Shown piece by piece: positions 20,127 through 49,789 of a stretch of 64,000 nucleotides of DNA. Below the pieces are notes generated by a model. The model did not search any database. It was given only the letters and a program-made list of their open reading frames with translations, and was not told where the DNA came from. Made by a program: the position numbers and the translations under genes. The DNA is from an uncultured virus (IMG/VR IMGVR_UViG_3300042298_004026) (taxonomy: Duplodnaviria; Heunggongvirae; Uroviricota; Caudoviricetes), in IMG/VR virus record IMGVR_UViG_3300042298_004026, one strand, 5' to 3'. Within the stretch, counting starts at the first letter, position 1; the number at the start of each line of letters is the position of its first letter.

Positions 20127-23100
20127 GACAGATCGAAGAGTTAATATTCCCACTTGTTAAAGCTCAATTTCCTGACTTCTATCAGGATGAAGGTCCTCGC
20201 TTTATTTCTTTTGTTAAGGAATACTATCGATGGATGGAGGCTGAAGGGGAAGCATTAAACGCTTCGCGTAACTTACTTGATTATCGAAATATTGATAGTA
20301 CATCAAGTGATTTCATAAAATATTTTAAGAACAAATACCTGTCCGGCGTACCTCTTTCAACGGAAGCAAACACACAGCTCGTTATTAAGCATGCTCTTGA
20401 TATCTACAAAGCCAAAGGAACAGAACGAGGTGTACAGCTTCTAATTCAGGGACTTTTCAATGAAGAATCAAGAGTTGTTTTTCCCGGTCAAGATATTTTT
20501 AAAACGTCAGACGGCGTCTGGATTAAGCCCACGTACCTCGAGCTGACGGTCAAAGAAAGAACACAAAGTTTTGTTGGTCAGGAAATTGTAGGTTCACGGA
20601 GTGGTGCTAAGGCATTTCTAGAAAGTATTGTAACCAAACGACTTGCAGGCAAGTACCAACAAGTTGCTTATCTGAGTAGTGTTAGAGGTAACTTTGAAAC
20701 CGGCGAGCTCATAACGACGACATCAAACACATCCTTTGAAAACGCGCCTACTGTAATAGGTTCAATGACTTCACTTACCGTAATCGATGGTGGTGCTAAT
20801 TTTGCTGTTGGTGATATTTTTGAGGTAACATCAACAAACGGTAAACAAGGCAAAGCACGTGTAACTGAGGTTTCAAATGAAACCGGACGTGTCACTTTCA
20901 TATATGTTGATGCATTTACAAGTGGTGGTTGGGGATATAGCATTGACCATGCAAACGTTATCGTATCGGATAAAGTCCTAACTCTCACCAACATTGTTAA
21001 CGCCAATGGGTTGATTACCGACTTCAGTCAATTTGAAACCGTCACACAACCCTTAGCTAATATTGGGTATAGTACGGCGAGAGGGAACAATTATCATTTC
21101 AATGTTGGTAACATCATAGAGAATTACAATTCTAACGGTGATGTTGTTGCTAACGCTGTTATAGCAGTCACAAGCAAAACTACAAACGCCGTTGGATGGA
21201 TTATTGTAGTGCCCAATGTTGGTAATATAGCCGCTCAAGACACAACATTTGCTGTGAGATCACAAGATCCCGATGAATCATCGTTTAATCCATCAACGAT
21301 CGGATTTGCTGAAAATACTTATACATCTGTTTATAGTAAGACATACTCTAATCTATTTACGGGTAGTTTTTCTCAAGAATTCACTTCGATATACACTTCT
21401 GATTATACTGGCGTATATGGTACGGTATACAGTTCTACTTATACACAAGGGTATTCTAGCACATACAGCAGAGTCTTCACTTCCGATTCTTACCTAGGCA
21501 ATTACTCTAAAACATTTACGAGCGAAGTATACACAGGTACCTATAGTAGGGTGTTTACAACTAGTGGAACAACAAACTTTTCCGGTTCATACCTACAATA
21601 TTTTATCGTTACAACACCATACACAGGGTCTGCTTATACAACAGCCTTTACCGGTGCATATACAGCTGTAGGCTTCACAGGCTTATACAATCTGACATAC
21701 ACAGGAAATTATACTAGAACCTTCACCAGCGAATTTCAGGGTACGCTAGTACCTGGTTTTTACACGGGTACCTACTCAGGGTCTTATGCTGGATCATATG
21801 TGGGGTACTTTACTGGTACACGTGTAACTCCGTTTGGTAATATTCCTTACAGCACAACATATATTAACTATTTTCTGGGATCGTATGTAGGTGGGTATCA
21901 AGGTGTGTATCAATCCGCGTATCAAAATCCATATAGCGGAGCAACGTTTGCTGCAAATGTAAACTCTTATAACTTACCTAATTATGTAAGCAATTTCTCA
22001 AGGGCCTATACGGGTGGCTTTATTTCATATCCTGTTTATACGGGCTTGAAATCGTTACCTTATGGTGGTGTTCCGGGTGTTACAGAAGGTTATGTTGGAG
22101 CTGGATATACCGGAGCCTATATTACATCATATTCGTCCATATACAGTGGTGCATATGGTGGTGATTCGTTCTCGAGAATTTTCACAGGACTGTATCAGCT
22201 CGGATCATTCACAGGAAACTTTACCTCAACATTTACCGGTAATTTTTCTGGTTCGTACGGAACAGCATATACAGGCACTTACAGTGATACGTTCACAAAT
22301 GATTATGTGGGTAGTTTTTCACGAACATTTCAAGGCAACTTCACAACAAGCTACACAACAAGCTACACAGGATTATACAATGTCTTTTCTGGTGCTTACA
22401 CGAGCACGTATTCGCAAGCATTTACTGCATTTACAGGTGCATACACAGGATTCACGGGTAGCTATAGTTTAGCTTTCAGTGGTAATTACAATGCTTTTTC
22501 TGGTCAATACCTTAGTTTCTCACTGTCATTTAGTGGATACAGTTCAGCTTTTAGCGGCGTATATAATAATTCATTCACCAGTGGGTATGGTGGGTATACA
22601 GGCATCTTTACAAGAACTTACACCAGCGCACAAGGAACAGCAAACGGCGTCATAGTTCAATATTTCAGCAAAGCATATACAGGGTTATATGCAGGTTCTG
22701 ATTATACAAGTGCTTTCAATGGTTACACGAGAACATTTACCGTAACACTTGCTGGTGCGTTTACAAGTTCGTATAGTGGTCAATTTACAGGCGCTTACAT
22801 AGGGTATACAGGAACGTATCTGGCTCGAACATATACGGGTAGCTATGGTGCTTACAGTGGAGCGTATCAAGACTCACTGTTCACGGGTAGTTATGGATTT
22901 TTCACAGGTGCTTTTGGATCAGCCTACACGGGTCTCTTTATAGGTAGCGGTAGCACCCGAATAAACACATTAACTGCACATGAATTCAGTAATAATGATA
23001 TTGTTCGTTACCATGTCATGCCAGGTAATACATACATTCCTGAGCTGTCAATAGGTGCTGCATATTACATAGTAAACGCTGTACCAGGTTCAACGAGCTT

Positions 23101-25567
23101 ATACTTGTCTCATACACCTGGTGGTGCCCCAATATCCCTTACCAGAGGGTCAAACGAAACAGGTCACAGGCTGATACGTACCTTGGGTACTGCTGTCATT
23201 ACGTTCTATGGGGATAGGACAGCTACAGGTAATGTTAATGGCTCAAATACATCCACGCTCGTTTACTCCTTCAATGCACAAACATCTGTGTCAAGTGCTG
23301 GCGACACAATAACAATACCGAGCCATCAGCTTGAAAACAATTACGTTATCTCTTACAGTGTCAGTGCAGGTAACACACAACTCGATGGGCTAATTAATAC
23401 CACAAAGTACTATGTTGTTAACACAACTGCATCCACTATCCAATTATCTGCTACCAGAGGTGGATCGCCTTTAGGTATATCAGCAAGCAATAGAAGCGAA
23501 AATGGGCATTTCATAACACACACAACAGGATTCGTGGGTGTTGTTGATATATCAGTCAACGGATTCGTTGCATCAGCTCAAACCTACATTCGTGGGTCGA
23601 CGAGTAACACAACAGCCTCTGTGGCGAACGTAAGTACAGGATCAGGAGCTGGTTTTAGTATCGGTCTTTTAACGGATACAGAGAGTGTCCTACTATCACC
23701 CGACTTTATTGATGGAAAAAATACAGGTAATGTGAAGTTTAGCGAAATAAAACTTAACGGTATTGGCTCTAATGTTACCGCTGGTGGATATGGAACGGCA
23801 GCTACATTTAATGGTAATACGGATATTACAGAAGGAGCAAATGGTACTGGCGTTTTGTTACCATCACGTGTTGAATTCAATGCTTTATCAGGTGTTAACA
23901 ACACGACTAATATTATTACCATTAGTTCGCCAGCTAAACACATCTTTAGTAACAACGAGCAAGTAAACTATCTTGTTACACCTGGTAACACGGCTGTTAC
24001 TGGCCTGGCAAACAACACCAATTATTATATTGTCAATGCAGTTGCAGGATCAACTACGTTACAGTTGTCGCTTACTTCTGGCGGTTCGCCAATTGACATA
24101 ACAGCCACTGCCAACGAAGTTGGGCATTCACTTACACGACAGGCCACAACTGGATCAAATAACAGTATAGCCTTGAGCACAGCTGTCAATTATTTGCCGA
24201 ACAGTGCTGTGCATTACAGTCTAAGCGCAGCGAACACATCTATCGATGGCCTTACACCTAACACCGTGTATTATATCGATCAATCAAATGCAACACATAT
24301 AACGTTGAAGGATTCACCGACAGGACTACGTATTAATATCCTTAAAGGACCAACCGAATCGGGGCACACGTTGTTTGGTCCTCTGAGAATAATTACGGGT
24401 GCAAACTCAACATACGATAATGTTGGTTCAGGCGAAGAAATATTCCGTGGTCTTGGTTTTATCAAATTCCCTGGAACAAATCTTGATACGATTCTTCTTG
24501 ACGCTCTTCGTTTTGACAGTACCACTATAGGATCTATAGCTTCGTTGGTTTCTATTAACCCAGGAGCTGATTATAATGTTGATCCGTTTGTAACCGTTGT
24601 TGATACGTTTGTTGTTGGATACGACAGTCGTGATTATGTTATGCAAATTAACAATACAGTTGGTGCATTTGTTGTTGGTGAGCAGATACAACAGTCATAT
24701 AGCAACGTAGCAACACAACTAACCGTTACAGGATTCACAGGCACAGCTGCAAACGGTGTTGGGACTTCAACGTTTGTTATAAATGAGTTTGTATATCAAA
24801 GTAATTCAACAGCAAACGTAGCAGCATCTGGATTTGTCGTTGAAGCTGCAATAAGTGCTGGCTCTGGAACATTAAAAATTAAAAATGTAACGGGCACGTT
24901 TGTAAATAATGCGCCGTCCTACCCTCTGAAGGGGTTGTCGTCAGGATCAACATCTAATGTTACACTTGTGACGCCAACAACACTTGCAACTACTGCTAGG
25001 GCACTTGTTAAATCAGCAAACTCATCGGTCCTCAAATTAAAGCGTATCAATTTAGAAAACACCTTCCTCGATGGTAATCCGATTATAGGTCGTTCATCCG
25101 GTGCAACAGCAAACGTTGTTGGTGTTGTTGAGGATGCAAACGCTGTGCCTGTTGGTTTAAATGCATCAATAGAGGCCAACGTTCAAACAGCGAATAATGT
25201 TGTGAAAAAACTTGCTGTTGCTGATTCGGGTTTTGGATATCTTGATCGTGAACCAGTTACTTTAACGATGTCTAACTCAGCGTTCAGCGTGACTGCTGTT
25301 GTTGAGCTTGGTAAACAAGGCGTTGGGCAGGGATATTATGGTTCTACAAGAGGATTTTTAAGTGATGATAAGAAACTGCAGGATGGTGAATTTTATCAGG
25401 AATACAGTTATGAAGTACAAACAAAGGTACCGTTTGATAGATATTTCGATGTCTTGAAAAGAGTTACACACGTAGCTGGAACAAAAGCATTTGGTAGAGT
25501 TATTTCTCTTTCGCTGGCAAACTTAGAAATGACCGCTATAAATACTATCGAAACCTCGAACACTTAA
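20123..25567 (+). CDS. gp7: Baseplate wedge initiator (gp7-like) with inserted tetrapeptide repeat and four small H-x-[FL] beta-modules
   Basis: N-terminal QFPDFY...FVKEYYRWME...YKAKGT and C-terminal LQDGEFYQEYSYEV...HVAGTKAFG are gp7-like. Lies between gp6 and gp8. Confidence 0.8.
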   Translation: MRQIEELIFPLVKAQFPDFYQDEGPRFISFVKEYYRWMEAEGEALNASRNLLDYRNIDSTSSDFIKYFKNKYLSGVPLSTEANTQLVIKHALDIYKAKGTERGVQLLIQGLFNEESRVVFPGQDIFKTSDGVWIKPTYLELTVKERTQSFVGQEIVGSRSGAKAFLESIVTKRLAGKYQQVAYLSSVRGNFETGELITTTSNTSFENAPTVIGSMTSLTVIDGGANFAVGDIFEVTSTNGKQGKARVTEVSNETGRVTFIYVDAFTSGGWGYSIDHANVIVSDKVLTLTNIVNANGLITDFSQFETVTQPLANIGYSTARGNNYHFNVGNIIENYNSNGDVVANAVIAVTSKTTNAVGWIIVVPNVGNIAAQDTTFAVRSQDPDESSFNPSTIGFAENTYTSVYSKTYSNLFTGSFSQEFTSIYTSDYTGVYGTVYSSTYTQGYSSTYSRVFTSDSYLGNYSKTFTSEVYTGTYSRVFTTSGTTNFSGSYLQYFIVTTPYTGSAYTTAFTGAYTAVGFTGLYNLTYTGNYTRTFTSEFQGTLVPGFYTGTYSGSYAGSYVGYFTGTRVTPFGNIPYSTTYINYFLGSYVGGYQGVYQSAYQNPYSGATFAANVNSYNLPNYVSNFSRAYTGGFISYPVYTGLKSLPYGGVPGVTEGYVGAGYTGAYITSYSSIYSGAYGGDSFSRIFTGLYQLGSFTGNFTSTFTGNFSGSYGTAYTGTYSDTFTNDYVGSFSRTFQGNFTTSYTTSYTGLYNVFSGAYTSTYSQAFTAFTGAYTGFTGSYSLAFSGNYNAFSGQYLSFSLSFSGYSSAFSGVYNNSFTSGYGGYTGIFTRTYTSAQGTANGVIVQYFSKAYTGLYAGSDYTSAFNGYTRTFTVTLAGAFTSSYSGQFTGAYIGYTGTYLARTYTGSYGAYSGAYQDSLFTGSYGFFTGAFGSAYTGLFIGSGSTRINTLTAHEFSNNDIVRYHVMPGNTYIPELSIGAAYYIVNAVPGSTSLYLSHTPGGAPISLTRGSNETGHRLIRTLGTAVITFYGDRTATGNVNGSNTSTLVYSFNAQTSVSSAGDTITIPSHQLENNYVISYSVSAGNTQLDGLINTTKYYVVNTTASTIQLSATRGGSPLGISASNRSENGHFITHTTGFVGVVDISVNGFVASAQTYIRGSTSNTTASVANVSTGSGAGFSIGLLTDTESVLLSPDFIDGKNTGNVKFSEIKLNGIGSNVTAGGYGTAATFNGNTDITEGANGTGVLLPSRVEFNALSGVNNTTNIITISSPAKHIFSNNEQVNYLVTPGNTAVTGLANNTNYYIVNAVAGSTTLQLSLTSGGSPIDITATANEVGHSLTRQATTGSNNSIALSTAVNYLPNSAVHYSLSAANTSIDGLTPNTVYYIDQSNATHITLKDSPTGLRINILKGPTESGHTLFGPLRIITGANSTYDNVGSGEEIFRGLGFIKFPGTNLDTILLDALRFDSTTIGSIASLVSINPGADYNVDPFVTVVDTFVVGYDSRDYVMQINNTVGAFVVGEQIQQSYSNVATQLTVTGFTGTAANGVGTSTFVINEFVYQSNSTANVAASGFVVEAAISAGSGTLKIKNVTGTFVNNAPSYPLKGLSSGSTSNVTLVTPTTLATTARALVKSANSSVLKLKRINLENTFLDGNPIIGRSSGATANVVGVVEDANAVPVGLNASIEANVQTANNVVKKLAVADSGFGYLDREPVTLTMSNSAFSVTAVVELGKQGVGQGYYGSTRGFLSDDKKLQDGEFYQEYSYEVQTKVPFDRYFDVLKRVTHVAGTKAFGRVISLSLANLEMTAINTIETSNT
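21320..22945 (+). repeat. About 540-aa [F/Y]-x-G-x tetrapeptide coding repeat inside gp7
   Basis: Aromatic residue at about every fourth position (YTGT YSRV FTGA...) with Thr/Ser/Gly filler. Confidence 0.9.
25537..25544 (+). promoter_or_regulatory. T4-type late promoter TATAAATA upstream of gp8
   Basis: Exact TATAAATA about 30 nt before ATG 25576. Confidence 0.7.
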
Positions 25568-37999: not shown

Positions 38000-40900
38000 A
38001 TGGCAAGACCACTTAGAGCAAGATATGTTACAGCAAGTACAAGTGACGGTGTTCAGGAGATGTCGGATAGCGACATCAATGACCTTGTTATTCCTAGGAT
38101 AACCAACTTATTTTACGCTGCATCAAATACATCTGGCTACGGTAACAAACTCGAACTAAGAACTACACCACCAACTTGGAATTATGTTACTGGTGGGACT
38201 GTTCTTGATGTGTTTCCAACAGCTTTACCGCCCATCGGGACACATCCAGTAACTTCTTCGTCAACAACATACACGTTGTACCAAAATCTTGACACTGCAT
38301 TGACAACAAACTTTGATCTTATAACCAAACCTGTTAAAACAGAGGCAAGTGGTGGTGTTCAAAAGATTCAACAGTTTTCAAACAATGAAATCAGAGATGA
38401 TATTCATAGTAAAGTTATTGCTGAAATATCTGTTGGGGCACAAGGAGCTTACTGGCTTGGAACTTCACCACCAGGAACAGGTACGTGGATTGTTGTATCC
38501 TCAATAAACGATACTTTTGTTAACTCGACAAGCAATAGCACGCAAACAACCACATATAATTTGTATCAGCGCTCTACGAATAGTGGGTATGGTACAAAGA
38601 GGCCTTTAAAAGGTACAGCGAACGCTCTTACAGAGATGTCCGATGCTGAAATTGACACAATGACAGCGGCTATACGTGATTGTATTGCGGCTGGTATTGG
38701 TAGATATCAAATATCGACTACATCACCAACGCCTGGTACTTGGGTAGCTCGTGGTTCTTTCACAGATACACAGAATGGTATAGAGGATCAATCATATTCC
38801 GGTAGTTACTTGGGTACTTTTACAGGTGCGTTCAGTGGCATTTATAATCAAGCATTCACAGGAGCTTATCAGGGACAGTTTAATCGGGCATTTACAGGTA
38901 ACTTTATTGATACTTCTAAATTTACTGGTGCATTTGCAGGTGTGTATCAGCAAAATTTTACAGGTATCTATTCACGTATTTTTACTCGTGATACAAACAC
39001 CTCGTTTACGGGTGTTTATCAGAACACATATACAGGTAATTACACAGGTTTATTTGCGGGTGCATACTCACAGGTATTCTCCGGTGGATATTTGGGAAGT
39101 TATCAAGGCTCTACTTTTACTGGCGGCTTCAACCAGACTTTTGCTGGTACGTATGTGGGAACATTTACAGGACCATATTCAGGAAATTTCCAGGGCGTAA
39201 CATATTCAGGCGGATTCAATCAAAATTTTACTGGCGTATATGTAGGGGCGTTTTCAAGACCATATGCTGGGAACTTCCAAGGTATAACATATTCGGGTGG
39301 ATATAATCAGACTTTTGCCGGTACGTATGTGGGAACATTCACGGGACCATATTCTGGTTCTTATCAGGGTACAATATATCCTGGTGGGTATAATCAGACG
39401 TTTGCTGGAACATACAATCAAACGTTTACAGCTCAATACTCAGGGGATTTCCAGGGCGTAACATATTCAGGCGGTTACAATCAGACTTTCATAGGTGTAT
39501 ACGCAGGATCATTTTCAAGACCATATGCTGGGAATTTTCAAGGTATAACATATTCAGGTAGCTACAATCAAACCTTTGCCGGTACGTATAATCAAAGTTT
39601 TACCGGTGGATTTGTAAATAATTATGCCGGGACCTACTCACAGGCGTTCAGTGCCACGTACGCTGGTGGATATGTTGGGGACTTTTCAAGAGCATATACA
39701 GGTTCATATCAGAACACATATTCAGGGGCATATGCAAATACGTGGTCTCGAATATTTTCAAGAGCGTGGACGGGATCCTATACTGCTGCATATACGGGCG
39801 ATTATACTGGTGCATATACGAAGGCCTTTGCGCGACTTTTCACAGGAACATATACAGGCGCTTGGATTGGTAACTACACACGTGGCTTTGTAGGCCTATA
39901 TGGTTCAACATTCTCAAGAGGCTTCTCCTCCTTTTTCGTGGCCGCGTACACTTCAACGTATGCAGGAACTTATACAGGTAACTACACACGAGCTTTCACA
40001 CCATCGTTTCAAGGATCGTATGCACTTCCTTCTGTAGGCTCCTACGATGGGGATTACATAGCAGGTGGATTTACTGGGCCTTTCAACATCACGTATTATA
40101 CAGGTACATATCAGGGCACATATAACAGCTTTTTCACGGGTACGTATGAAGGTGCTTTCTCACGTATATTTGCCGGTAGTTATGCTGGTACATACCAAGA
40201 CCCCTATACAATAACATCATTTACGGGGCCATTTGCTGGTACAGGTTATTTTACAGGATCGTACGTTGGCAATTACCAAGGTAATTTTGGCGCTAGTTAT
40301 CAAACGACATTCCAGGGATTTTATTCGGGTTTATATACGCAGGCCTTTTTGAGAGCGTGGACGAACGTATTTGTATCAAGCTGGACATCACTGTATGCTG
40401 GTACATACTCAAGAGCATTTACAGGTGAATATCTCCAAAACTACATTGGATCGTATGAAGGAACATTCAGTAGAGAGTTCTCAGCCCCATATCAGGGATC
40501 ATATGAGAATAGTTGGTCAAGAATATTTACTGGTGATTGGACGGGGGGTTTTAGTACTAATTACACTGGTGGGTATGTTAATTTTTGGACAGGGTCTTAC
40601 ACGAGTACATATTCCAGGGTTTTTTCGGGAGCTTATACTGGTGTAATTACATACACGGGTGGGTTTGTTGGGTTATATGCAAATACGTGGGCAGGCAGTT
40701 ACACAGGACAATTTACTGGTGGCTATACTAGGGCGTTCACGGGTGACTATACGGCTACTTGGTCAGGATCCTATACCGGTGCGTACTCACAAAACTTTAC
40801 CGGTTCGTATACAGGGACCTTTACTGGTGGATATACGGCTACGTGGACCGGTACCTACTCAAGAGTATTCACAGGACAGTTTACAGGCGGATATACCGCG

Positions 40901-41548
40901 GTATTTACTGGTGCTTATACATCAACCTGGACAGGTTCATATGTAGGTTCATACTCACAAAACTTTTCTGGTAACTATGTAGGAACATTTACGGGTGCGT
41001 ATACATCCACTTGGACAGGTTCTTACACCGGATCGTATTCACAAAACTTTACTGGTATATACACAGGCACGTTCACAGGGGCATACACGGCTACGTGGAC
41101 GGGTGTATATTCTGGTGCGTATTCACGAAATTTTACAGGCGCATATACGGGTACATTCAGCGGCAACTACACAGCTACCTTTGCTGGGACGTACACGGGC
41201 GGTTATACACGAGCATTTTCTGGTACATACGCTGGTAACTACACGGGCGGGTTTATTGGTCAGTGGACAGGAGTATACAGCCGTATATTCACTGGTTTAT
41301 ATACCGGCGCGTTCACAGGCGTTTTTATTGGTAACTTTACAGGTAGTTATGTTGGGACATATTCACGTATATTTACGGGTGCATATACTGGTTTGTTCAC
41401 TGGCTCATATTCTGGAGCATATACGGGTGCTTTCAGTGGTAACTATGCTAATAATTTTACACGATTATTTACAGGGGCATACTCGGGTCTAACCGTCACC
41501 GGTACAACGACGACGACTACATATACATTATGGGTTAGAACAGCTTGA
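38000..41548 (+). CDS. Giant tetrapeptide-repeat protein A (1182 aa), putative virion fibre
   Basis: Three N-terminal RPL...EMSxxxI modules, about 900-aa [FYW]xGx array (38795-41491), C-terminal LWVRTA. Confidence 0.8.
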   Translation: MARPLRARYVTASTSDGVQEMSDSDINDLVIPRITNLFYAASNTSGYGNKLELRTTPPTWNYVTGGTVLDVFPTALPPIGTHPVTSSSTTYTLYQNLDTALTTNFDLITKPVKTEASGGVQKIQQFSNNEIRDDIHSKVIAEISVGAQGAYWLGTSPPGTGTWIVVSSINDTFVNSTSNSTQTTTYNLYQRSTNSGYGTKRPLKGTANALTEMSDAEIDTMTAAIRDCIAAGIGRYQISTTSPTPGTWVARGSFTDTQNGIEDQSYSGSYLGTFTGAFSGIYNQAFTGAYQGQFNRAFTGNFIDTSKFTGAFAGVYQQNFTGIYSRIFTRDTNTSFTGVYQNTYTGNYTGLFAGAYSQVFSGGYLGSYQGSTFTGGFNQTFAGTYVGTFTGPYSGNFQGVTYSGGFNQNFTGVYVGAFSRPYAGNFQGITYSGGYNQTFAGTYVGTFTGPYSGSYQGTIYPGGYNQTFAGTYNQTFTAQYSGDFQGVTYSGGYNQTFIGVYAGSFSRPYAGNFQGITYSGSYNQTFAGTYNQSFTGGFVNNYAGTYSQAFSATYAGGYVGDFSRAYTGSYQNTYSGAYANTWSRIFSRAWTGSYTAAYTGDYTGAYTKAFARLFTGTYTGAWIGNYTRGFVGLYGSTFSRGFSSFFVAAYTSTYAGTYTGNYTRAFTPSFQGSYALPSVGSYDGDYIAGGFTGPFNITYYTGTYQGTYNSFFTGTYEGAFSRIFAGSYAGTYQDPYTITSFTGPFAGTGYFTGSYVGNYQGNFGASYQTTFQGFYSGLYTQAFLRAWTNVFVSSWTSLYAGTYSRAFTGEYLQNYIGSYEGTFSREFSAPYQGSYENSWSRIFTGDWTGGFSTNYTGGYVNFWTGSYTSTYSRVFSGAYTGVITYTGGFVGLYANTWAGSYTGQFTGGYTRAFTGDYTATWSGSYTGAYSQNFTGSYTGTFTGGYTATWTGTYSRVFTGQFTGGYTAVFTGAYTSTWTGSYVGSYSQNFSGNYVGTFTGAYTSTWTGSYTGSYSQNFTGIYTGTFTGAYTATWTGVYSGAYSRNFTGAYTGTFSGNYTATFAGTYTGGYTRAFSGTYAGNYTGGFIGQWTGVYSRIFTGLYTGAFTGVFIGNFTGSYVGTYSRIFTGAYTGLFTGSYSGAYTGAFSGNYANNFTRLFTGAYSGLTVTGTTTTTTYTLWVRTA

Positions 41549-41554
41549 GAAAAA

Positions 41555-44500
41555 ATGCCACTTCGTCCGTTATACTATAATACATCGTTATCCGGATTAC
41601 AGGAGATGTCCAATACGGACATCGATGGATATATTTCAAATGTAATAGGTTCTGATTTTGCTTCGACAGAAGATATTGGATCTCTCATCGTGCAGGATCC
41701 AGGTGATCCGGTTCCTGCAAATTCTACCTCCATTGGTACATGGGTTGATACACGCTACGATCAACAAATAGGTGACCATCCTGTTTCAGAAGCGAATCTT
41801 GTTTATTCAAACACAACCATTTATCAAAGATTGGGTGGTGGACCATTAACGGACCCTTCAATGGTACGACCTATTTGCTGGAATGATACGCTTGATGGCG
41901 TACAGCAAATGGCGAATACGGATATTGACACAACCATTATTGCGAAGGCCGTTTCTTATATTGTCAATGGTGGTGTCGGTTCATATGTCCTGCAGCCGTC
42001 TGCACCAGTAACTGGTACGTGGGTTGTGAGAGGGCGATTGCAGAATACTGAACGTCCATACTTTGCCAATGAAACATTTCTCTGGCAAAAAACGTCTGAA
42101 AGTCCAAGCGGCTCTATAAAGCCTTTGAAATGGAGTACTAATGCTTTACGTGAGATGTCAAATAACGACATCAAAACCTTGACACATAGAGCAAGAAATT
42201 ACATCGCCAATACAGGTATAGGCACCTATCAATTATCCACAACCACCCCGTCATCAGGCGGAACGTGGGTTGAGGCGGGTACGGGATTCAATGATACCCG
42301 TCAAGAAATAAGACCTCAAACTTATAATGCTCAAGTGTATACAGCAACTTTTTCTGGTGTATATACACGGGCTTTTGTTGGCAAGTATCAAGGTAGTTTT
42401 ACTGGTTTGTATGGGATACCATACACACGTGAATTCACAGGTACATTCGCAGATACGTTTACCGGGGCTTTCAATCAGCAATTCACCGGAGCTTTTTCTA
42501 GCGGATATGCAACAACGTACACGGGTACGTTTAATCAGCAGTTCACTGGACAATTCACTGGCGCTTATACTGGTGGTTATACAGGAACATTTACCGGTGC
42601 TTACACGGGCGGATATACAGGTGCATTCACTGGTGTATATTCGGCGCCTTATGTGGGTAGCTTCACTGGTGTATATGTAGGGACGTTTAATCAGCAGTTT
42701 ACTGGCGCGTTCAGTGGTGTTTATCTAGGGACATATCAACAAAATTTCACTGGTGATTATGTTGGTGGCTTTACAGGTGCATTCAGCGGTGCTTATGCTC
42801 AAGCATTTACGGGTGCATATAGTTCAATCTTTACAGCAGCATATAGCGGTTCGTTTACAGGCCAGTTTTCGGGTTTATACACAGGCGCTTTCACGGGTGT
42901 ATATGTAGGAAGTTACGTGGGGAAATTCACAGGCGCATATACGGCTATCTATAGTAGATTGTTTACAGGGGACTACACAGGTATTTATACTGGTGCATAT
43001 AGTCAGAACTTCACCGGTGCCTTTACTGGTCAATTCAATCAAGTGTTTACAGGTACGTTCGCTGGTGGTTATGCAGGAACGTTTAACCAAGTATTTACGG
43101 GCACATTTGCAGGTACTTACAGTAGCCTGTTCTCTGCAATATACACAGGCAACTACACTGGTATATACAGCCAAGCGTTTACAGGTGCATTCACGGGTAT
43201 TTTTAATCAGGCTTTCACAGGTAACTTTGTTGGTAATTATGTTGGTAACTATCAGCAAACATTTACGGGAGCTTTTGCAGGAACATACAGCAGTTTATTC
43301 ACGGGAAGCTACACAGGTAACTACACAGGATTATATAACCAAGTATTTACAGGAACGTTTGCTGGAACATATAGCCAAGTATTTTCGGGTAGCTATACCG
43401 GTAATTACACGGGATTATATAACCAAGTTTTTACAGGTACTTTTGCGGGAACATATAGTAGATTATTCACAGGAAGCTATACAGGCAATTACACAGGCAT
43501 ATACAATCAAATATTCACAGGTACCTTCGCAGGCACTTACAGTAGATTATTCACGGGAAGCTATACAGGTAATTACACTGGCATATACAATCAAGTATTT
43601 ACAGGTGCGTTTGTAGGAAATTATGCCGGGTCGTTTACTGGTTCGTTTGCTGGTGGATACACAGGTGCTTTTTCCGGTTCATACACAGGCGCTTACACAG
43701 GAATTTATGCAGGTTCATATGTAGGAAATTACCAGGGAAACTTTACTGGTTCATTTGCAGGAACATATAGTAGATTATTTATAGGTTCGTATTCGGGTGG
43801 GTACACACGTGCATTCACAGGAGCTTACACAGGAATTTATTCGGGCGGGTACGTAGGCTCCTTCACGGGTTTGTACTCCGGTGGGTATGTAGGTTCTTTC
43901 ACAGGTATTTACTCAGGCGGATACACGAGAGCTTTCTCGGGATCATACACTGGATCATATACTGGAACATACGCCGGAACGTACACAGGTTTGTATTCAG
44001 GTGGGTATGTCGGATCGTTTACGGGCATATACTCAGGCGGATACACGAGGGCTTTCTCGGGATCATACACTGGATCATATACTGGAACATACGCCGGAAC
44101 GTATACAGGCATATATGCTGGTGGATATGTGGGGTATTTTACGGGCATATACTCAGGCGGATACACGAGAGCTTTCTCGGGATCATACACTGGATCATAT
44201 ACTGGAACATACGTAGGAACGTATACAGGCATATATGCTGGTGGGTATGTGGGGTATTTTACTGGAATATACTCTGGTGGGTATACAAGAGCTTTCTCAG
44301 GATCATATACTGGATCATATACTGGAACATACGCCGGAACGTATACGGGTTTGTATTCAGGTGGTTATGTCGGATACTTTACAGGCATATATTCAGGTGG
44401 TTATGTTGGATACTTTACAGGAATATATGGTGGCACGTACAGTAGGTTATTCACAGGTGCCTACGCGGGTGGATATATTGGGTACTTCACAGGAATATAT

Positions 44501-47500
44501 GGCGGTACGTATAGTAGATTATTCACAGGCGCCTACGCGGGTGGGTATGTTGGTTACTTTACAGGAATATATGGTGGTACATATAGTAGATTATTTACAG
44601 GTACATACTCTGGAAGTTATCAAGGCAATTTCACGGGGCTCTATTCAGGTACATATAGTAGATTATTTACTGGCAGCTATACAGGATTATATTCCGGAAA
44701 CTTTCAGGGTAACTTTACAGGTGCTTTTGCTGGTACGTATAGTCGATTGTTTACGGGTTTATATACAGGATCATACTCTCGTGGGTTCACGCGGGTCTTC
44801 ATCGGGACTTATCAAAGAGGGTTCATAGGGTCATATGCAGGTAGCTTCAATAATACATTCACACCAACATTTGCTGGAGCTTACGCTCGGGCCTTTATTG
44901 GAGTTTATGCAGGATCGTACCAAAACCCATTCACTGGAATATATTTCACTGGTTATTACACTGGTTTTTACATTAATTTTTTTACAGGAACTTATCAGGG
45001 AGCGTTCACGCGTTTGTTCACAGGGGCATATACAGGCGTTTATCAAGATCCTTACGTCATTTTAACTTTTACGGGGCCATTTGCTGGTCCAGGTTTTTTC
45101 GCGGGTACCTATGGGGGTTCTTATGTAGGTGTGTTTGGCGCCTCATATAGTAGGCTATTTACAGGCTTTTATTCAGGATCATATACTGGTGATTTTACGG
45201 GAGCGTTTGCTCGGGTGTTCACAGCAACATGGACAGGGTCCTATGCAGGATCTTATCAAGGCAACTTTACAGGAAGTTTTGCGGGTACGTATAGTAGATT
45301 GTTTACTGGGCAGTATTCTGGCGCTTATGCAGGATCCTATCAGGGTAACTTCACAGGTACTTTTGCTGGTACGTATAGTAGATTATTTACGGGTACGTAC
45401 TCGGGCAACTACCAAGGCAACTTCTCCGGGATATATGCAGGATCATATGCACAGACGTTTACTGGAATATACTCCGGCAATTACCAAGGCAACTTTTCCG
45501 GAACATATGCGGGTGCATATGCACAGACTTTCACAGGAATATATTCCGGCAATTATCAAGGCAACTTCTCAGGAACATATGCAGGAGCATATGCACAAAC
45601 ATTTACAGGTGCATATGCAGGGGCATATGCTCAAACATTTACAGGTACTTACGCAGGCGGATATACAGGCTATTATTCTGGCGCCTATGCTGGTACATAT
45701 TCGGGTGCATTCAATCAAACATTTACAGGTGCATATGCAGGGGCATATGCTCAAACATTTACAGGTACTTACGCAGGCGGATATACAGGCTATTATTCTG
45801 GGGCATATGCTGGAACGTATTCGGGCTCATTTAACCAGACATTTACGGGTGCATTTGCAGGGGCATATGCTCAAACATTTACAGGTACTTACGCAGGCGG
45901 ATATACAGGCTATTATTCTGGCGCTTATGCTGGTACATACTCAGGAGCATTTAACCAGACATTTACAGGTGCATTCGCCGGTGTATATCAACAAACCTTT
46001 ACGGGTACGTATTCAGGTGGATATATTGGATACTATTCTGGCGCTTATGCTGGTACATACTCAGGAGCATTTAACCAGACATTTACAGGTGCATTCGCTG
46101 GTGTATATCAACAAACATTTACCGGTTCTTACTCGGGTACATATCAGCAAACGTTTACAGGTGGGTATGCAGGGACATATTCAGGGTCTTATAATCAGAC
46201 ATTTACAGGCGCTTTTTTAGGTAGTTATGAAAGTTCTTTCACTGGATTTTATTCAGGTGCCTATAGTAGATTATTCACTGGTAGCTACACAGGTGCGTAT
46301 ACTGGAATATATGTGGGTTCCTATGTTGGTACATTTAATCAAACATTTACGGGTAGTTTTGCAGGCACATATTCAAGAGTATTTTCGGGATTATATTCCG
46401 GTGGCTACACGGGTGCATTTACTGGAATATATGCCGGTGCTTATGTTGGCAACTTCCAAGGCAATTTCACAGGTAACTACTCTGGTGGCTACACAGGTGC
46501 ATTTACTGGAATATATGCTGGTGCTTATGTTGGCAACTTCCAAGGCAACTTCACAGGAAATTATTCAGGTGGATATACAGGAACATTTTCGGGAATATAT
46601 GCTGGTAGTTATGTAGGAGGGTATCAGGGCAACTTCACAGGAAATTATTCAGGCGGATATACCGGCACATTTACTGGTGTATATGCAGGCGCTTATGTTG
46701 GAAGCTATCAAGGGAATTTCACTGGAAGTTTTATTGGTGGCTACACACGTGTGTTCTCGGGCACATATTCCGGTGTATATACGGGTGTTTACACAGGTCA
46801 ATTTACAGGGATATACTCAACGTTATTTACAGGTGCATTCAGTGGGATATACGCAGGCGGATATGGTGGGAGTTTTCTAGGAAACTTCTCAGGGCTGTAT
46901 TCGGGCGGATACACAGGAGCGTTTACAGGTATTTACACAGGTATCTACACAGGTGGGTATACTGGCACCTTTACTGGAGCATACTCAACACAGTTTACAG
47001 GTACATTTACAGGTGGATATGCAGGCACGTATGCCGGTGCCTACCAAGGCAACTTCACAGGCGTGTTCCAAGGTACGTACCAACAATCATTTACAGGTAA
47101 TTACACCGGCATATACAGCCAAGCATTTAGTGGTACATATAACCAAGCATTCACAAGAAACTTTACTTTTGATTATACCGGTACGTTTTCGGGACCATAT
47201 GTAGGATTTTTCACTGGAAGTTATTCACAAGTCTTCAGTAGATTTTTTACAGGATCATATACGGGTCAGTTCACAGGCGCTTATTCGGGCATATACAGTC
47301 AAGCCTTTACAGGTGCGTTCTCTGGCAATTATACAGGTATCTACAGTCAAGCATTCACAGGTGCTTACACGGGTATATTCAATCAAACATTCACTGGCGA
47401 TTTCGTAGGAAAATTTAATCAAACCTTCAGCGGTATTTTCATTGGTTCCTATAATCAACAATTCACTGGTGCTTTTAGTGGTGGGTATACGGCGGTGTAT

Positions 47501-47983
47501 ACTGGCGCTTACAGTCAAGCCTTTACTGGTACATTCAGCGGCATTTATACTGGTCAGTTTTCTGGTGCGTACACGGGAGCATTTGGTTCATTGTTTACAG
47601 GAGTATACAGCCGTATATTCACTGGATCTTATTCGAGCGCATTCACAGGCCAGTTTAACCAATCGCCTGTTTACACGAGCGTGTATTCAAGACCATATGC
47701 TGGCGTGTATGGTCAGACGTTTAGTAGTACGACATATCCAGGTGCGTTTTATGCACAAGCGTTTACAGGAGAGTACACAGGATCGTATACAGGAACCTCT
47801 ATCTTTGGGTTCACAAGTAGTTTTTCTAAAGCATTTACTAGTTTGTTAGGTTCTTTTTCATCGTTATTTACAGGACTATATACTAACATAACAGGGCAAT
47901 ATCTAGCAGCTTGGTCGGGGTTGACAATAATGTCAACGCCGGAAACAATTCAAACACTTAAACTTTGGGTACGAACAGCATGA
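41555..47983 (+). CDS. Giant tetrapeptide-repeat protein B (2142 aa), paralogue of A
   Basis: Same N-terminal module triplet, about 1860-aa [FYW]xGx array (42338-47923), C-terminal LWVRTA. Confidence 0.8.
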   Translation: MPLRPLYYNTSLSGLQEMSNTDIDGYISNVIGSDFASTEDIGSLIVQDPGDPVPANSTSIGTWVDTRYDQQIGDHPVSEANLVYSNTTIYQRLGGGPLTDPSMVRPICWNDTLDGVQQMANTDIDTTIIAKAVSYIVNGGVGSYVLQPSAPVTGTWVVRGRLQNTERPYFANETFLWQKTSESPSGSIKPLKWSTNALREMSNNDIKTLTHRARNYIANTGIGTYQLSTTTPSSGGTWVEAGTGFNDTRQEIRPQTYNAQVYTATFSGVYTRAFVGKYQGSFTGLYGIPYTREFTGTFADTFTGAFNQQFTGAFSSGYATTYTGTFNQQFTGQFTGAYTGGYTGTFTGAYTGGYTGAFTGVYSAPYVGSFTGVYVGTFNQQFTGAFSGVYLGTYQQNFTGDYVGGFTGAFSGAYAQAFTGAYSSIFTAAYSGSFTGQFSGLYTGAFTGVYVGSYVGKFTGAYTAIYSRLFTGDYTGIYTGAYSQNFTGAFTGQFNQVFTGTFAGGYAGTFNQVFTGTFAGTYSSLFSAIYTGNYTGIYSQAFTGAFTGIFNQAFTGNFVGNYVGNYQQTFTGAFAGTYSSLFTGSYTGNYTGLYNQVFTGTFAGTYSQVFSGSYTGNYTGLYNQVFTGTFAGTYSRLFTGSYTGNYTGIYNQIFTGTFAGTYSRLFTGSYTGNYTGIYNQVFTGAFVGNYAGSFTGSFAGGYTGAFSGSYTGAYTGIYAGSYVGNYQGNFTGSFAGTYSRLFIGSYSGGYTRAFTGAYTGIYSGGYVGSFTGLYSGGYVGSFTGIYSGGYTRAFSGSYTGSYTGTYAGTYTGLYSGGYVGSFTGIYSGGYTRAFSGSYTGSYTGTYAGTYTGIYAGGYVGYFTGIYSGGYTRAFSGSYTGSYTGTYVGTYTGIYAGGYVGYFTGIYSGGYTRAFSGSYTGSYTGTYAGTYTGLYSGGYVGYFTGIYSGGYVGYFTGIYGGTYSRLFTGAYAGGYIGYFTGIYGGTYSRLFTGAYAGGYVGYFTGIYGGTYSRLFTGTYSGSYQGNFTGLYSGTYSRLFTGSYTGLYSGNFQGNFTGAFAGTYSRLFTGLYTGSYSRGFTRVFIGTYQRGFIGSYAGSFNNTFTPTFAGAYARAFIGVYAGSYQNPFTGIYFTGYYTGFYINFFTGTYQGAFTRLFTGAYTGVYQDPYVILTFTGPFAGPGFFAGTYGGSYVGVFGASYSRLFTGFYSGSYTGDFTGAFARVFTATWTGSYAGSYQGNFTGSFAGTYSRLFTGQYSGAYAGSYQGNFTGTFAGTYSRLFTGTYSGNYQGNFSGIYAGSYAQTFTGIYSGNYQGNFSGTYAGAYAQTFTGIYSGNYQGNFSGTYAGAYAQTFTGAYAGAYAQTFTGTYAGGYTGYYSGAYAGTYSGAFNQTFTGAYAGAYAQTFTGTYAGGYTGYYSGAYAGTYSGSFNQTFTGAFAGAYAQTFTGTYAGGYTGYYSGAYAGTYSGAFNQTFTGAFAGVYQQTFTGTYSGGYIGYYSGAYAGTYSGAFNQTFTGAFAGVYQQTFTGSYSGTYQQTFTGGYAGTYSGSYNQTFTGAFLGSYESSFTGFYSGAYSRLFTGSYTGAYTGIYVGSYVGTFNQTFTGSFAGTYSRVFSGLYSGGYTGAFTGIYAGAYVGNFQGNFTGNYSGGYTGAFTGIYAGAYVGNFQGNFTGNYSGGYTGTFSGIYAGSYVGGYQGNFTGNYSGGYTGTFTGVYAGAYVGSYQGNFTGSFIGGYTRVFSGTYSGVYTGVYTGQFTGIYSTLFTGAFSGIYAGGYGGSFLGNFSGLYSGGYTGAFTGIYTGIYTGGYTGTFTGAYSTQFTGTFTGGYAGTYAGAYQGNFTGVFQGTYQQSFTGNYTGIYSQAFSGTYNQAFTRNFTFDYTGTFSGPYVGFFTGSYSQVFSRFFTGSYTGQFTGAYSGIYSQAFTGAFSGNYTGIYSQAFTGAYTGIFNQTFTGDFVGKFNQTFSGIFIGSYNQQFTGAFSGGYTAVYTGAYSQAFTGTFSGIYTGQFSGAYTGAFGSLFTGVYSRIFTGSYSSAFTGQFNQSPVYTSVYSRPYAGVYGQTFSSTTYPGAFYAQAFTGEYTGSYTGTSIFGFTSSFSKAFTSLLGSFSSLFTGLYTNITGQYLAAWSGLTIMSTPETIQTLKLWVRTA
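43262..46729 (+). repeat. Mirror-arranged tandem repeat blocks in protein B: 84 nt x4, 120 nt x4, 72 nt x3, centre, 72 nt x3, 120 nt x4, 84 nt x4
   Basis: Blocks at 43262-43597, 43874-44353, 44390-44605, 45398-45613, 45614-46093 and 46394-46729. Confidence 0.88.
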
Positions 47984-48423
47984 AACGAACTATTGTAAAT
48001 CCGCATTGGGTAAACAATGCAAGAACAGTTATCTCTGCTGAATTTCATTATGATGACGGTAGGGTAGCGCAGGCAACGATTTCCGAGTCGGATGTTACTA
48101 ATCCAGACCTTGTTGAAATTAAATCAAAATTTACGGACGAGCAACTTGAAGCTAACACGCGTAAAAAAATTCAAGAGATCAATGCCGAGCGTGAGCGTAA
48201 GCATCAGGAAGAATTGGCTAAGGCTCAACGAAAACAACAAGAAGAATTGTTTGCAGCTAAGCTAAGAATTTTTGAGATCGACGCCATTAAAGAATCAGAT
48301 AATCGAGTGCTCAAAGCAAAGATAAGAAAGTCAAAGAGTGATGTTGAGGCTATGGCGTGGGCCTCGGCTTTGTTGCTTGATATAGCCCAAAAGGAAATAG
48401 CAACAAATTCAACGGCGGAGTAA
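47980..48423 (+). CDS. Hypothetical protein, possible fibre assembly chaperone
   Basis: ATGA-coupled to protein B. Small beta N-terminus plus charged helix ending LFAAKLRIFEI..IK.S....K.KIRKSK. Confidence 0.6.
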   Translation: MKRTIVNPHWVNNARTVISAEFHYDDGRVAQATISESDVTNPDLVEIKSKFTDEQLEANTRKKIQEINAERERKHQEELAKAQRKQQEELFAAKLRIFEIDAIKESDNRVLKAKIRKSKSDVEAMAWASALLLDIAQKEIATNSTAE

Positions 48424-48425
48424 AA

Positions 48426-49160
48426 ATGAATATTCGTAATGGTTTTTTAATTGTTGCATCACAACTCAAAGAGTATCTAGATTCGGCAAATTATCTGGCG
48501 AGTAGTATAAAAGACTACTATCCCGAAGCACACATCACTCTTTTTGTAACTCCAAAGCTAGAGCAATATGCTGACCGCAGTGCCTTTGATCTAGTTATAT
48601 CTGAGGATGTTCCGAACCATGTGCGTACAAAGTTGTACGCTCTCTCCAGAACACCATACACTGAGCTTACTGTTTATGTTGATGCAGATATGGAGTGCAT
48701 GCACTCTGATGTCTCGAATATTTGGGATGAAATGCCTGAGGATTGTGACCTCCTGATTACAAAAATACGTCCCTATAACGGTAAAGAGGATCGTTGGCCG
48801 GGAGGTGCGACGATACCTCAAGGCCGTATGATATATCATGGTGGTTTTTTTATGTACAGATCAAACCCACAAACACTTGAGTTTATGCGTAGGTGGTGGG
48901 AGGATTATAAATTACAAAGAAGTGAACCATGGCCTTATCCTGAAGAAGAGTGTAGGAAGTCCTTTGCTCAATGGGATCAATTTACTTTTTGGAAACTTTT
49001 AGCTGTTGACAAGCTAGATGTTAAGGTAGGTGTTTTTGATGATGATGCAAGATGGAATTTTGTAAATGGTTATTATCCAAAAGAAGCCAAAAAAGAGATC
49101 GTTTTTTGGCACCACACTATTCCTTCTAAGCACGAAAATATAGGGATCAAAGCTAAATGA
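48426..49160 (+). CDS. GT-A fold glycosyltransferase (GT8-like)
   Basis: SIKDYYPEAHITLF...KLYAL..TPY...TVYVDAD (DxD)...HGGFF...WDQF..W...RWN...HH. Confidence 0.75.
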   Translation: MNIRNGFLIVASQLKEYLDSANYLASSIKDYYPEAHITLFVTPKLEQYADRSAFDLVISEDVPNHVRTKLYALSRTPYTELTVYVDADMECMHSDVSNIWDEMPEDCDLLITKIRPYNGKEDRWPGGATIPQGRMIYHGGFFMYRSNPQTLEFMRRWWEDYKLQRSEPWPYPEEECRKSFAQWDQFTFWKLLAVDKLDVKVGVFDDDARWNFVNGYYPKEAKKEIVFWHHTIPSKHENIGIKAK

Positions 49161-49789
49161 AAGAAATTCAAATAAACAATAAAGAACTTAAACAAATTTT
49201 AAATGATTGGTTAGAGGTTCTTTTGAGAGCAGATCGTTCGAAATATCCCTATCAAGCAGGCGTGGGTAAAACTGGATTAGTGACTCCAGAGTATGCATGT
49301 AGTATGGAATACTTGCAACACATGCAAAGTAAAAAAGTAGACGGATTCCCAGAAACAACACATGGTGTTGATCTAATGAGGTTTCGACCACCACACCAAT
49401 CCCTTGCCGACGCTTTGGTAAAGCTAGACTACGATCTACTCAATTGGTCTGGATCGCGCAACAATGCGGTTAAGATGCTCTATCCTAAAGGCGGGTATAT
49501 GGGCTGGCATCATAATGCAAACGCGCCCGGTTATAACATTCTTTTATCATGGTCTGAAAAAGGTACAGGTTTCTTTCGTTACCAAGATCCAATAACAAAA
49601 GAGATTGTCACGATGCAGGACACGCCTGGGTGGACGTGTAAAGTTGGATATTATGGACCATGGCATGAGCCGGATCGAATCTACTGGCACTGCGCAAGCG
49701 CACATGAAGAAGAGCGGGTAACGCTAGGGTATATCATTCCTCATGAAGGGATGTGGAATAATATGTGCGATGATATTCAGTCAGCGTAA
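49157..49789 (+). CDS. Putative Fe(II)/2OG oxygenase-like (cupin) protein
   Basis: YPKGGYMGWHHNANAPGYNIL...YWHCA...RVTLG. Confidence 0.55.
   Translation: MKEIQINNKELKQILNDWLEVLLRADRSKYPYQAGVGKTGLVTPEYACSMEYLQHMQSKKVDGFPETTHGVDLMRFRPPHQSLADALVKLDYDLLNWSGSRNNAVKMLYPKGGYMGWHHNANAPGYNILLSWSEKGTGFFRYQDPITKEIVTMQDTPGWTCKVGYYGPWHEPDRIYWHCASAHEEERVTLGYIIPHEGMWNNMCDDIQSA

What the first reader, a model, noticed from the sequence alone, without database searches (positions are those of the whole stretch)
39101..41179. Protein A shows the same mirror logic, and both symmetry centres fall on one conserved 'tip' motif
Seen: protein A has about six 29-aa units (FQGxTYSGGYNQTFAGTYVGTFTGPYSGN-type, from 39101) in its first half. 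Its second half has about six Trp-initiated units, mostly 28 aa (WTGSYTGSYSQNFTGIYTGTFTGAYTAT-type, about 40688-41179). The centre is near 40,140. That centre reads FFTGTYEGAFSRIFAGSYAGTYQDPYTITSFTGPFAGTGYFTGSY...FGASY. The centre of protein B reads FFTGTYQGAFTRLFTGAYTGVYQDPYVILTFTGPFAGPGFFAGTY...FGASY. This Pro-containing segment stands out as well conserved between the paralogues. Inference: it is the distal turn, tip or binding head.
Basis: partly seen in the sequence, partly recalled or inferred. Interest (0 to 1): 0.8.

Follow-up and report, generated by a model that had tools for sequence, protein, structure and literature searches.

The report
Swappable tip of fold-back phage fibre
Two neighbouring tail-region proteins of an uncultured lake phage most likely run out and back as very long hairpins, and the stretch they share at the far end is not a family-wide conserved motif but their fastest-changing part, which sister genes appear to pass to one another.

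Summary
Protein A (38000-41548) has six 29-aa units facing six Trp units rung for rung. An unbiased covariation scan puts the mirror axis at A 712-716 and B 1143-1147, the same place in the shared motif. Both are [FYW]-x-G-x repeats inserted in the last module of a three-module base, which the C-terminal strand closes, so the centre is the distal end of a fold-back hairpin. This scan already noted that architecture on other DNA of this phage and its relatives.

'Conserved tip' fails. The motif is A's best match to B (rank 1 of 84) but among its worst to A orthologues (76 and 83 of 84). Only 2 of 151 relatives carry its core. Instead, A and B share a tip within one genome in 3 of 7 genomes of this clade, with codon-level identity in two relatives (33 of 40, 25 of 29), which points to tip exchange between paralogues. 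Here the codons are saturated, so exchange is inferred. The two proline elements look like turns, which suggests a forked tip. Host binding is untested; the tip model was uninformative.

The parts
38000..41548 (+). Protein A, 1182 aa: base, out-and-back aromatic-x-Gly-x repeat, closing strand
   Evidence: no PHROG or Pfam family
38000..38794 (+). Base domain of A (aa 1-265): three tandem helix-plus-strand modules
   Evidence: alignment A1; model of relative P0044, pLDDT 93-98
38795..40144 (+). Ascending arm of A (aa 266-715, 450 aa)
39101..39622 (+). Six 29-aa units, seven tokens each
40061..40369 (+). Tip segment of A (about aa 688-790) that matches the tip of B better than any A orthologue
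   Evidence: chimera scan
40070..40096 (+). First proline element (Pro694 plus a 5-residue token), about 21 aa before the axis; candidate distal turn 1
40133..40156 (+). Mirror axis of A (aa 712-719), in register with the family tip motif
40193..40219 (+). Second proline element (Asp-Pro735 plus a 5-residue token), about 21 aa after the axis; candidate distal turn 2
40145..41491 (+). Descending arm of A (aa 716-1164, 449 aa)
40688..41179 (+). Six Trp-initiated units (one of 24 aa, five of 28 aa) that pair with the 29-aa block
41492..41548 (+). C-terminal strand that completes module 3 of the base
   Evidence: strand 342-371 of the P0044 model, pLDDT 94-98 from residue 351; conserved end
41555..47983 (+). 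Protein B, 2142 aa paralogue; base 37% identical to that of A
44909..45217 (+). Tip segment of B (about aa 1119-1221): Pro1125 and Pro1166 flank the axis at aa 1143-1147

Best explanation
A and B are virion fibre proteins of a T4-like lake phage. Each chain builds a three-module base, leaves it through the hairpin loop of module 3, runs out as a beta strand (450 aa in A, 890 aa in B), turns, and runs back antiparallel with aromatic residues facing glycines. Its last strand then closes the base. Fully extended this is at most about 150 nm (A) and 290 nm (B) at 3.3 A per residue (inference). The centre is the distal end. It is the most variable part of the gene, and because it is one contiguous central piece of DNA, a double crossover can replace it without unbalancing the arms. 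Replacement also happens between the A and B genes of one genome, which explains why this phage's two tips match each other and not their orthologues. The likely purpose is that both fibres present the same host-surface-binding end. The two Asn/Asp-Pro elements are probably chain reversals, giving an up-down-up-down forked end whose middle turn is the mirror axis. SHOWN: repeats, axis, equal arms, cross-arm complementarity, variable tip, codon-level A/B tip identity in two relatives. PREDICTED: base closure, on a short relative. INFERRED: fold-back (about 0.85), exchange in this genome (about 0.65), forked tip (about 0.55), host binding (about 0.5).
For: Context: tail and baseplate genes on both sides. 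Insert lengths run from 6 to 1867 aa among 126 complete relatives with the same base and end; 564 clusters hit at E<=0.001. The tip motif sits at offset -2.5 +/- 0.5 in 21 of 122 proteins with inserts of 16-899 aa. Five of 7 B-type proteins keep the axis 19-20 tokens from the midpoint over 374-464 tokens despite different tips. Cross-arm pairs show big-small complementarity: position 4-4 TT 18 vs 70.5 expected and GG 2 vs 14.5; position 2-2 AA 2 vs 43.8. That register puts position 1 opposite position 3. Base trees separate the A and B lineages with starred support. In 3 of 7 genomes of the clade the best A window against the genome's own B is near the middle of both inserts and scores 90, 110 and 113, against at most 58, 48 and 23 for B of other genomes. 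L047 and L003 have 92% and 87% identical bases and the same A tip, yet L047-B carries that A-type tip while L003-B carries the window-B type. Codon identity between the tips of A and B: L047 33 of 40 (18.0 expected), L051 25 of 29 (10.4). Window A aa 700-780 match own B colinearly while aa 800-850 match A orthologues. A single xP-aromatic element lies at the axis in L049-B and L046-B and at the insert midpoint in P0092. A variable receptor-specific segment between conserved flanks is known for T4 gp37 (PMC9659904, passages).
Against: In this window tip codons are saturated: 39 of 85 identical against 36.7 expected. The one 21-nt exact match is reached by 52 of 300 synonymous redraws. A's tip scores only 50-66 against tips of five B proteins of other genomes, under the null 99th percentile of 76. 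Twin proline elements 38-44 aa apart also occur in more distant A-type proteins P0004, P0005 and P0018, so the direction B-to-A is weak. Four of 7 genomes of the clade and 4 of 4 of the L011-L031 clade show no shared tip; in L004-L010 the shared tip is also shared across genomes. The second L051 element is not codon-enriched (11 of 23 vs 8.7). The hairpin of the short relative is modelled at pLDDT about 50. The window's proline elements are degenerate versions of the turn signature, and the two 5-residue tokens also face each other in a straight-hairpin register. No evidence of virion location, host or binding.
Confidence: 0.6

Rival explanations
1. The central motif is a family-wide conserved structural turn or head, kept by purifying selection since A and B diverged.
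For: Best A-versus-B window. A loose skeleton recurs: Asn/Asp-Pro-aromatic-[STN]-[GNA] in 13 of 151 relatives, at relative position 0.42-0.62 of the insert in 12 of them.
Against: Least conserved part against orthologues. The long core is in 2 of 151 relatives. A search of viral contigs with the motif gave only this phage and one B orthologue. The orthologue with a 97% identical base has another centre.
Confidence: 0.1
2. Fold-back fibre with a variable tip, but the A/B likeness in this genome comes from an old shared tip type or from parallel selection for one receptor, not from exchange between the two genes.
For: Saturated codons here. Twin-proline tips in distant A-type proteins. L004-L010 share one tip across genomes and paralogues.
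Against: The tips are more alike (39 of 57 in the core) than the bases (37%), although tips are unrelated between A orthologues with 97% identical bases. A 10-aa insertion is shared only by window A and B among four long-twin tips. Two relatives show codon-level identity.
Confidence: 0.25
3. The tip is one straight hairpin that turns at aa 712-719; the two proline elements are paired kinks or bulges, not turns.
For: The axis is in exact register with the family's single-turn motif (offset -2.0). The 5-residue tokens and the irregular Gly-rich tokens face each other across the axis.
Against: The same element stands alone at the axis or midpoint in three relatives. Short twin tips read as a tandem duplication of one hairpin with a Gly/Ala/Pro linker between.
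Confidence: 0.4
4. No fold-back: two chains lie antiparallel end to end, each C-terminal strand closing the other chain's base, so the centre is a two-fold axis in the middle of a rod.
For: Would give the same mirror covariation; nothing here measures whether the pairing is within or between chains.
Against: Relatives with 16-aa inserts and Gly-Gly turns exist. The monomer model closes its own base with high confidence. Loops and small domains sit at the centre in many relatives.
Confidence: 0.07
5. The fibres do not bind a host receptor. They are whiskers or tethers, and tips vary because the far end is least constrained and drifts by recombination among repeats.
For: No binding data. The tip here is made of the same repeat alphabet, with no separate binding domain. 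Repeat blocks also move between arms.
Against: Tips are replaced wholesale while arm parity is kept. Some relatives carry elaborate or basic tips and inserted domains. Base-conserved, tip-variable is the pattern of known adhesion fibres (PMC9659904).
Confidence: 0.3

Closest known systems
Distal tip of the T4 long tail fibre gp37 (collar plus needle)
   Same: A hairpin goes out from a base domain and returns, the C-terminal strand rejoining the base. A variable segment lies between conserved flanks at the far end (gp37 aa 932-965; PMC9659904 passages; variable centre seen).
   Different: gp37 is a trimer with a six-stranded needle and His-x-His motifs. Here there is no His in 899 and 1868 repeat residues, the arms are several times longer, the repeat is aromatic-x-Gly-x, and the base has three modules in one chain. 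No profile likeness to the gp37 collar (probability 0.1%).
T4 gp10/gp11/gp12 'flower motif' (helix plus small sheets, decorated by large insertions, trimeric; PMC3004832 passages)
   Same: Module 2 of the model aligns with gp11 (1el6, Z 2.5, 45 residues, rmsd 3.2, 24% identity) and with a KP1 baseplate chain (9f4b, Z 2.6). hhalign to gp11 gives E 0.017 over 22 columns. gp10 and gp11 end in a similar short strand.
   Different: All signals are weak. The module HMM score for gp11 is reached by 2 of 300 shuffles, for gp10 by 26 of 300, and gp37 is not hit. Here the three modules would form a single-chain pseudo-trimer with one long insert.
MABP beta-prism domains (8b6v, 2qp2, 3tow MVB12B, 6sb1 perforin-2 P2)
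   Same: Best whole-base matches: Z 7.2, 6.8, 5.3 and 4.7 over 107-119 residues, rmsd 3.6-5.9. The perforin-2 domain bears an inserted extended hairpin whose tip binds lipid (PMC7593815 passages).
   Different: Z under 8 and 5-10% identity may mean only a common arrangement. Those hairpins are short and have no such repeat.
Uncharacterised 3347-aa protein WJE88074.1 of phage C48C1 (Kyanoviridae, OQ984149)
   Same: Same base (24% identity, E 1e-4), same repeat type and end, same three-gene block downstream by size. It was the only isolate hit in three tblastn searches.
   Different: Arg-rich repeat, several globular inserts in the descending arm, different centre; annotated as hypothetical; no paper found.

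Membership tests
T4 gp37-type collar-and-needle tip | Out-and-back hairpin inserted in a base that the C-terminal strand closes | tested here: met
   Model of relative P0044; equal arms; cross-arm covariation. The hairpin itself is low-confidence.
T4 gp37-type collar-and-needle tip | Variable distal segment between conserved flanks | tested here: met
T4 gp37-type collar-and-needle tip | His-x-His metal sites along the needle | tested here: not met
   No His in either repeat region; motifs present in gp37
T4 gp37-type collar-and-needle tip | Sequence homology to the Collar domain (PF07484) | tested here: not met
   No Pfam hit for A or B; Collar not among the 25 families shown of 46 for 75 relatives at E<=10; hhalign probability 0.1%
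T4 gp37-type collar-and-needle tip | Homotrimer with a six-stranded needle | not tested
   No trimer prediction was run
T4 gp37-type collar-and-needle tip | Tip binds a host-surface receptor | not testable with these tools
   Host unknown; needs binding assays
gp10/gp11/gp12 flower motif | Helix plus three-stranded sheet and further strands, tolerant of large insertions | tested here: inconclusive
   Z 2.5-2.6 over 43-45 residues; E 0.017; 2 of 300 shuffles
gp10/gp11/gp12 flower motif | Three-fold assembly of the motif | tested here: inconclusive
   Three tandem modules with repeated secondary structure in one chain; symmetry of the model not measured
MABP beta-prism | Beta-prism fold | tested here: inconclusive
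   Z 4.7-7.2, under the level the tool calls clear
MABP beta-prism | Lipid binding through a loop or hairpin tip | not testable with these tools
   Described for MPEG1 in PMC7593815 (passages)

The most novel reading that the evidence does not exclude
A large unannotated family of T4-like phage fibres is built from one chain: a pseudo-trimeric gp11-like collar carries a single antiparallel aromatic-glycine ribbon up to hundreds of nanometres long, held in register by a readable rung-by-rung pairing code. It ends in a forked receptor-binding tip that is a central DNA cassette, exchanged in both directions between the phage's two fibre genes so that a short and a long fibre target the same host surface.
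Probability: 0.3. Interest if true: 0.85.

Novelty: new variant of a known kind. Interest (0 to 1): 0.62.

Why it matters
It would add an adhesion-fibre design with no solved structure to a family of at least 564 clusters that PHROG and Pfam do not name. It explains how such a gene can change its far end without breaking arm parity, because the tip is one central piece of DNA. The cross-arm pairing code is also of interest for beta-ribbon design.

Tried and rejected
AlphaFold on A aa 635-815 with a 4-row alignment gave mean pLDDT 29, so it says nothing about one turn or three. A two-copy complex job on the short relative P0044 gave no verdict (score 0.06). Foldseek found no match at E<=0.001 in PDB or BFVD, and the profile search of PDB sequences gave one chance hit. 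PHROG, Pfam and the ESM Atlas gave no usable family (best Atlas score 0.86). Homology of the base to the gp37 collar and to gp12 was tested and not detected. The 21-nt exact A/B match at 40220 and 45068 was rejected as proof of recent conversion (52 of 300 redraws reach 21 nt somewhere). A misassembly of A with B's tip was rejected. Joints have sides of 20-33 nt in low-depth contigs and were not used. Axes of the six other A-type proteins (z 1.9-3.3) and of L002-B (z 1.9) were poorly defined, so their rows in the tip matrix are approximate. Four of 126 proteins were dropped before the centrality count for a wrong anchor. Literature searches that found no description of this family or of tip exchange between such paralogues: (open-access library only; supplements not read). 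PMC8594841 passages did not bear on the question.
Full report
CONTEXT. The window is the tail and baseplate block of a T4-like myovirus: baseplate wedge subunits, tail-fibre-like genes and a head-tail adaptor by PHROG. Its DNA is held by lake-water metagenomes: 18 of 24 listed runs hold half of the sampled words or more, and 7 of those may be its source. Protein A is 38000-41548 (1182 aa) and protein B is 41555-47983 (2142 aa). Neither has a PHROG or Pfam family.

OBSERVATION. The units, coordinates and quoted centres are as stated. Both proteins are runs of four-residue tokens, aromatic-x-Gly-x (204 of 219 tokens in A and 450 of 463 in B have four residues). A scan for covariation between tokens at mirror positions, blind to the motif, peaks at A 712-716 and B 1143-1147, the same place in the shared motif. 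In B the repeat periods run 7,10,6 then 6,10,7 tokens. In A the six 29-aa units face the six Trp units rung for rung, and the arms are 450 and about 449 aa. After composition weighting the centre is the best of 84 windows of A against B. Contigs from two runs not flagged as a source cover the tip in place without differences.

WHAT THE PROTEIN IS. The first 260 residues are three repeats of a helix-plus-strands module. The repeat sits in the hairpin loop of module 3, and about 18 C-terminal residues complete that module. A profile of the base hits 564 clusters, of which the best 150 were listed. Among the proteins then held, 126 are complete and have inserts of 6 to 1867 aa. AlphaFold on a 373-aa relative with a 75-row alignment gives pLDDT 93-98 for residues 1-240 and 94-98 for 351-373, with a low-confidence hairpin between. 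After dropping 4 proteins with a wrong anchor, a tip motif lies within -4.5 to -0.5 aa of the insert midpoint in 24 of 112 inserts of 40 aa or more (2.2 expected), and at -2.5 +/- 0.5 in 21 of 122, A included. Over seven long proteins the arms show big-small complementarity at positions 4-4 and 2-2 in one register, and that register sets the aromatic opposite the glycine. Aromatic residues covering glycines across antiparallel strands is a known stabilising pattern (recalled, no call). So the chain goes out and back, and the centre is its far end. Earlier notes of this scan reached the same architecture on other DNA. I had stated this reading before seeing them, and they are not independent evidence.

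IS THE TIP CONSERVED? Not across the family. Against five A orthologues, likeness rises with distance from the axis (Spearman 0.86; mean score 38 within 40 aa of the axis, 98 at the base). The motif windows rank 76 and 83 of 84. In B they rank 177 and 179 of 181. L002-A, with a 97% identical base, is colinear with A only over aa 1-373 and 1086-1182. The long core of the motif is found in 2 of 151 distinct relatives, both B-type. A search of viral contigs with the motif returned this phage and one B orthologue. What recurs is a loose Asn/Asp-Pro-aromatic element, in 13 of 151 relatives and nearly always central.

WHY THEN DO A AND B MATCH? I compared 15 genomes that hold both paralogues. In 3 of the 7 genomes of this clade (window, L047, L051) the best A window against the genome's own B lies near the middle of both inserts and far outscores B of any other genome (90 vs 58, 110 vs 48, 113 vs 23). 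The other four share no tip, nor do 4 of 4 genomes of the L011-L031 clade. In L004-L010 one tip type is shared across genes and genomes. The bases of A and B form separate, well-supported lineages. L047 and L003 are close (bases 92% and 87% identical) and have the same short twin-proline tip in A. L047-B has that tip too, whereas L003-B has the long type of window B and L002-B. At the DNA level the A and B tips share 33 of 40 codons in L047 (18.0 expected, and more than the 26 of 40 between the two A orthologues) and 25 of 29 in one L051 element (10.4 expected); a second L051 element gives 11 of 23 (8.7 expected). That is direct evidence of recent exchange between paralogues in two relatives. 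In the window, A aa 700-780 match B colinearly while aa 800-850 match A orthologues, and a 10-aa insertion is shared only by window A and B among four long tips. Codons are saturated, however (39 of 85 vs 36.7). A's tip scores no better than the null against B tips of other genomes (50-66; 99th percentile 76), and distant A-type proteins also have twin prolines. Exchange here is therefore inferred and old, and its direction is uncertain.

SHAPE OF THE TIP. Pro694 and Pro735 lie symmetrically about aa 714.5, as do Pro1125 and Pro1166 in B. The same element stands alone at the axis in L049-B and L046-B and at the midpoint in P0092. Asn/Asp-Pro-x-Thr/Ser-Gly is a classic hairpin turn (recalled; search listed one unrelated paper). 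If each element is a reversal, a twin tip needs a third turn at the axis and is forked. The short twin tips read as a tandem duplication of one hairpin. Against this, the window's elements are degenerate, the axis is in exact register with the family's single-turn motif, and the irregular tokens face each other as in a straight hairpin. I put the fork at about 0.55; no usable model decides it.

FUNCTION. A conserved base, length-variable arms and an exchangeable far end, in the tail block, fit an adhesion fibre. T4 gp37 has a variable receptor-specific segment between conserved flanks at the end of an antiparallel needle (PMC9659904, passages; the structure paper it cites was not read). Binding, virion location and host are untested.

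RELATION TO KNOWN FAMILIES. It works like the gp37 tip but is not shown to be a member: no His motifs and no collar profile match. The whole base resembles MABP beta-prisms at Z 4.7-7.2, a lead from an earlier scan note that I tested. One module resembles T4 gp11 by structure (Z 2.5, 45 residues), by profile (E 0.017) and by module HMM (2 of 300 shuffles). gp10, gp11 and gp12 share a trimeric motif decorated with large insertions (PMC3004832, passages), so a single-chain pseudo-trimer of that motif is a weak but coherent lead. The only isolate homologue found is a hypothetical protein of phage C48C1. Searches of the open-access library found no description of the family; subscription papers and supplements were not seen.

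VERDICT. Novelty: a new variant of a known kind (fold-back adhesion fibre). The fibre design was already noted by this scan. Tip sharing between paralogues and the forked-tip reading were not in the notes returned. Interest 0.62.

Noticed in passing
window 21305-22942 (+), inside the baseplate wedge gene 20123-25567: The wedge subunit carries about 545 aa of the same aromatic-x-Gly-x repeat, with one Asn-Pro element near aa 602. It has no clear match to the A or B tip (scores 50 and 37), so the ribbon seems to be a portable insert.
   Followed up: partly
window 41555-47983 vs L003:12869-18259: Repeat blocks change sides: B aa 1238-1543 (descending) match L003-B aa 566-875 (ascending), and B aa 816-972 match L003-B aa 1098-1250. 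Complementary block types pair in either direction.
   Followed up: partly
window A and B, and five relatives: A second covariation signal, Phe with Phe and Tyr with Tyr (MI 0.22), lies six residues off the main register. It is not a nearest-neighbour contact in a flat two-stranded ribbon and may mark supercoiling or an inter-chain contact. Unexplained.
   Followed up: no
window 44993-47923 (descending arm of B): B's descending arm is 86 aa longer than its ascending arm, a constant 19-20 tokens in 5 of 7 B-type proteins. The register shifts in the third nearest the base, so the place of the excess is not fixed; irregular tokens at aa 2034-2120 are a candidate side branch.
   Followed up: partly
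window 47965-49789 (+): A small gene, a glycosyltransferase-like gene (PF03407, E 2e-4, just under the cut-off) and a third gene follow the fibre genes in the same order in close and distant relatives. They could be a chaperone and modifying enzymes for the Ser/Thr-rich fibres; untested.
   Followed up: no
L002:13148-19417, aa about 650-830; L039:14983-25026: Globular domains are inserted into one arm only (about 180 aa in L002-B; several in the C48C1 protein) without a counterpart in the other arm, so arms can carry side domains.
   Followed up: no
L051:268-2106 and L051:2125-5877: A and B share two Arg/Lys-bearing tip elements in opposite order along the chain.
   Followed up: partly
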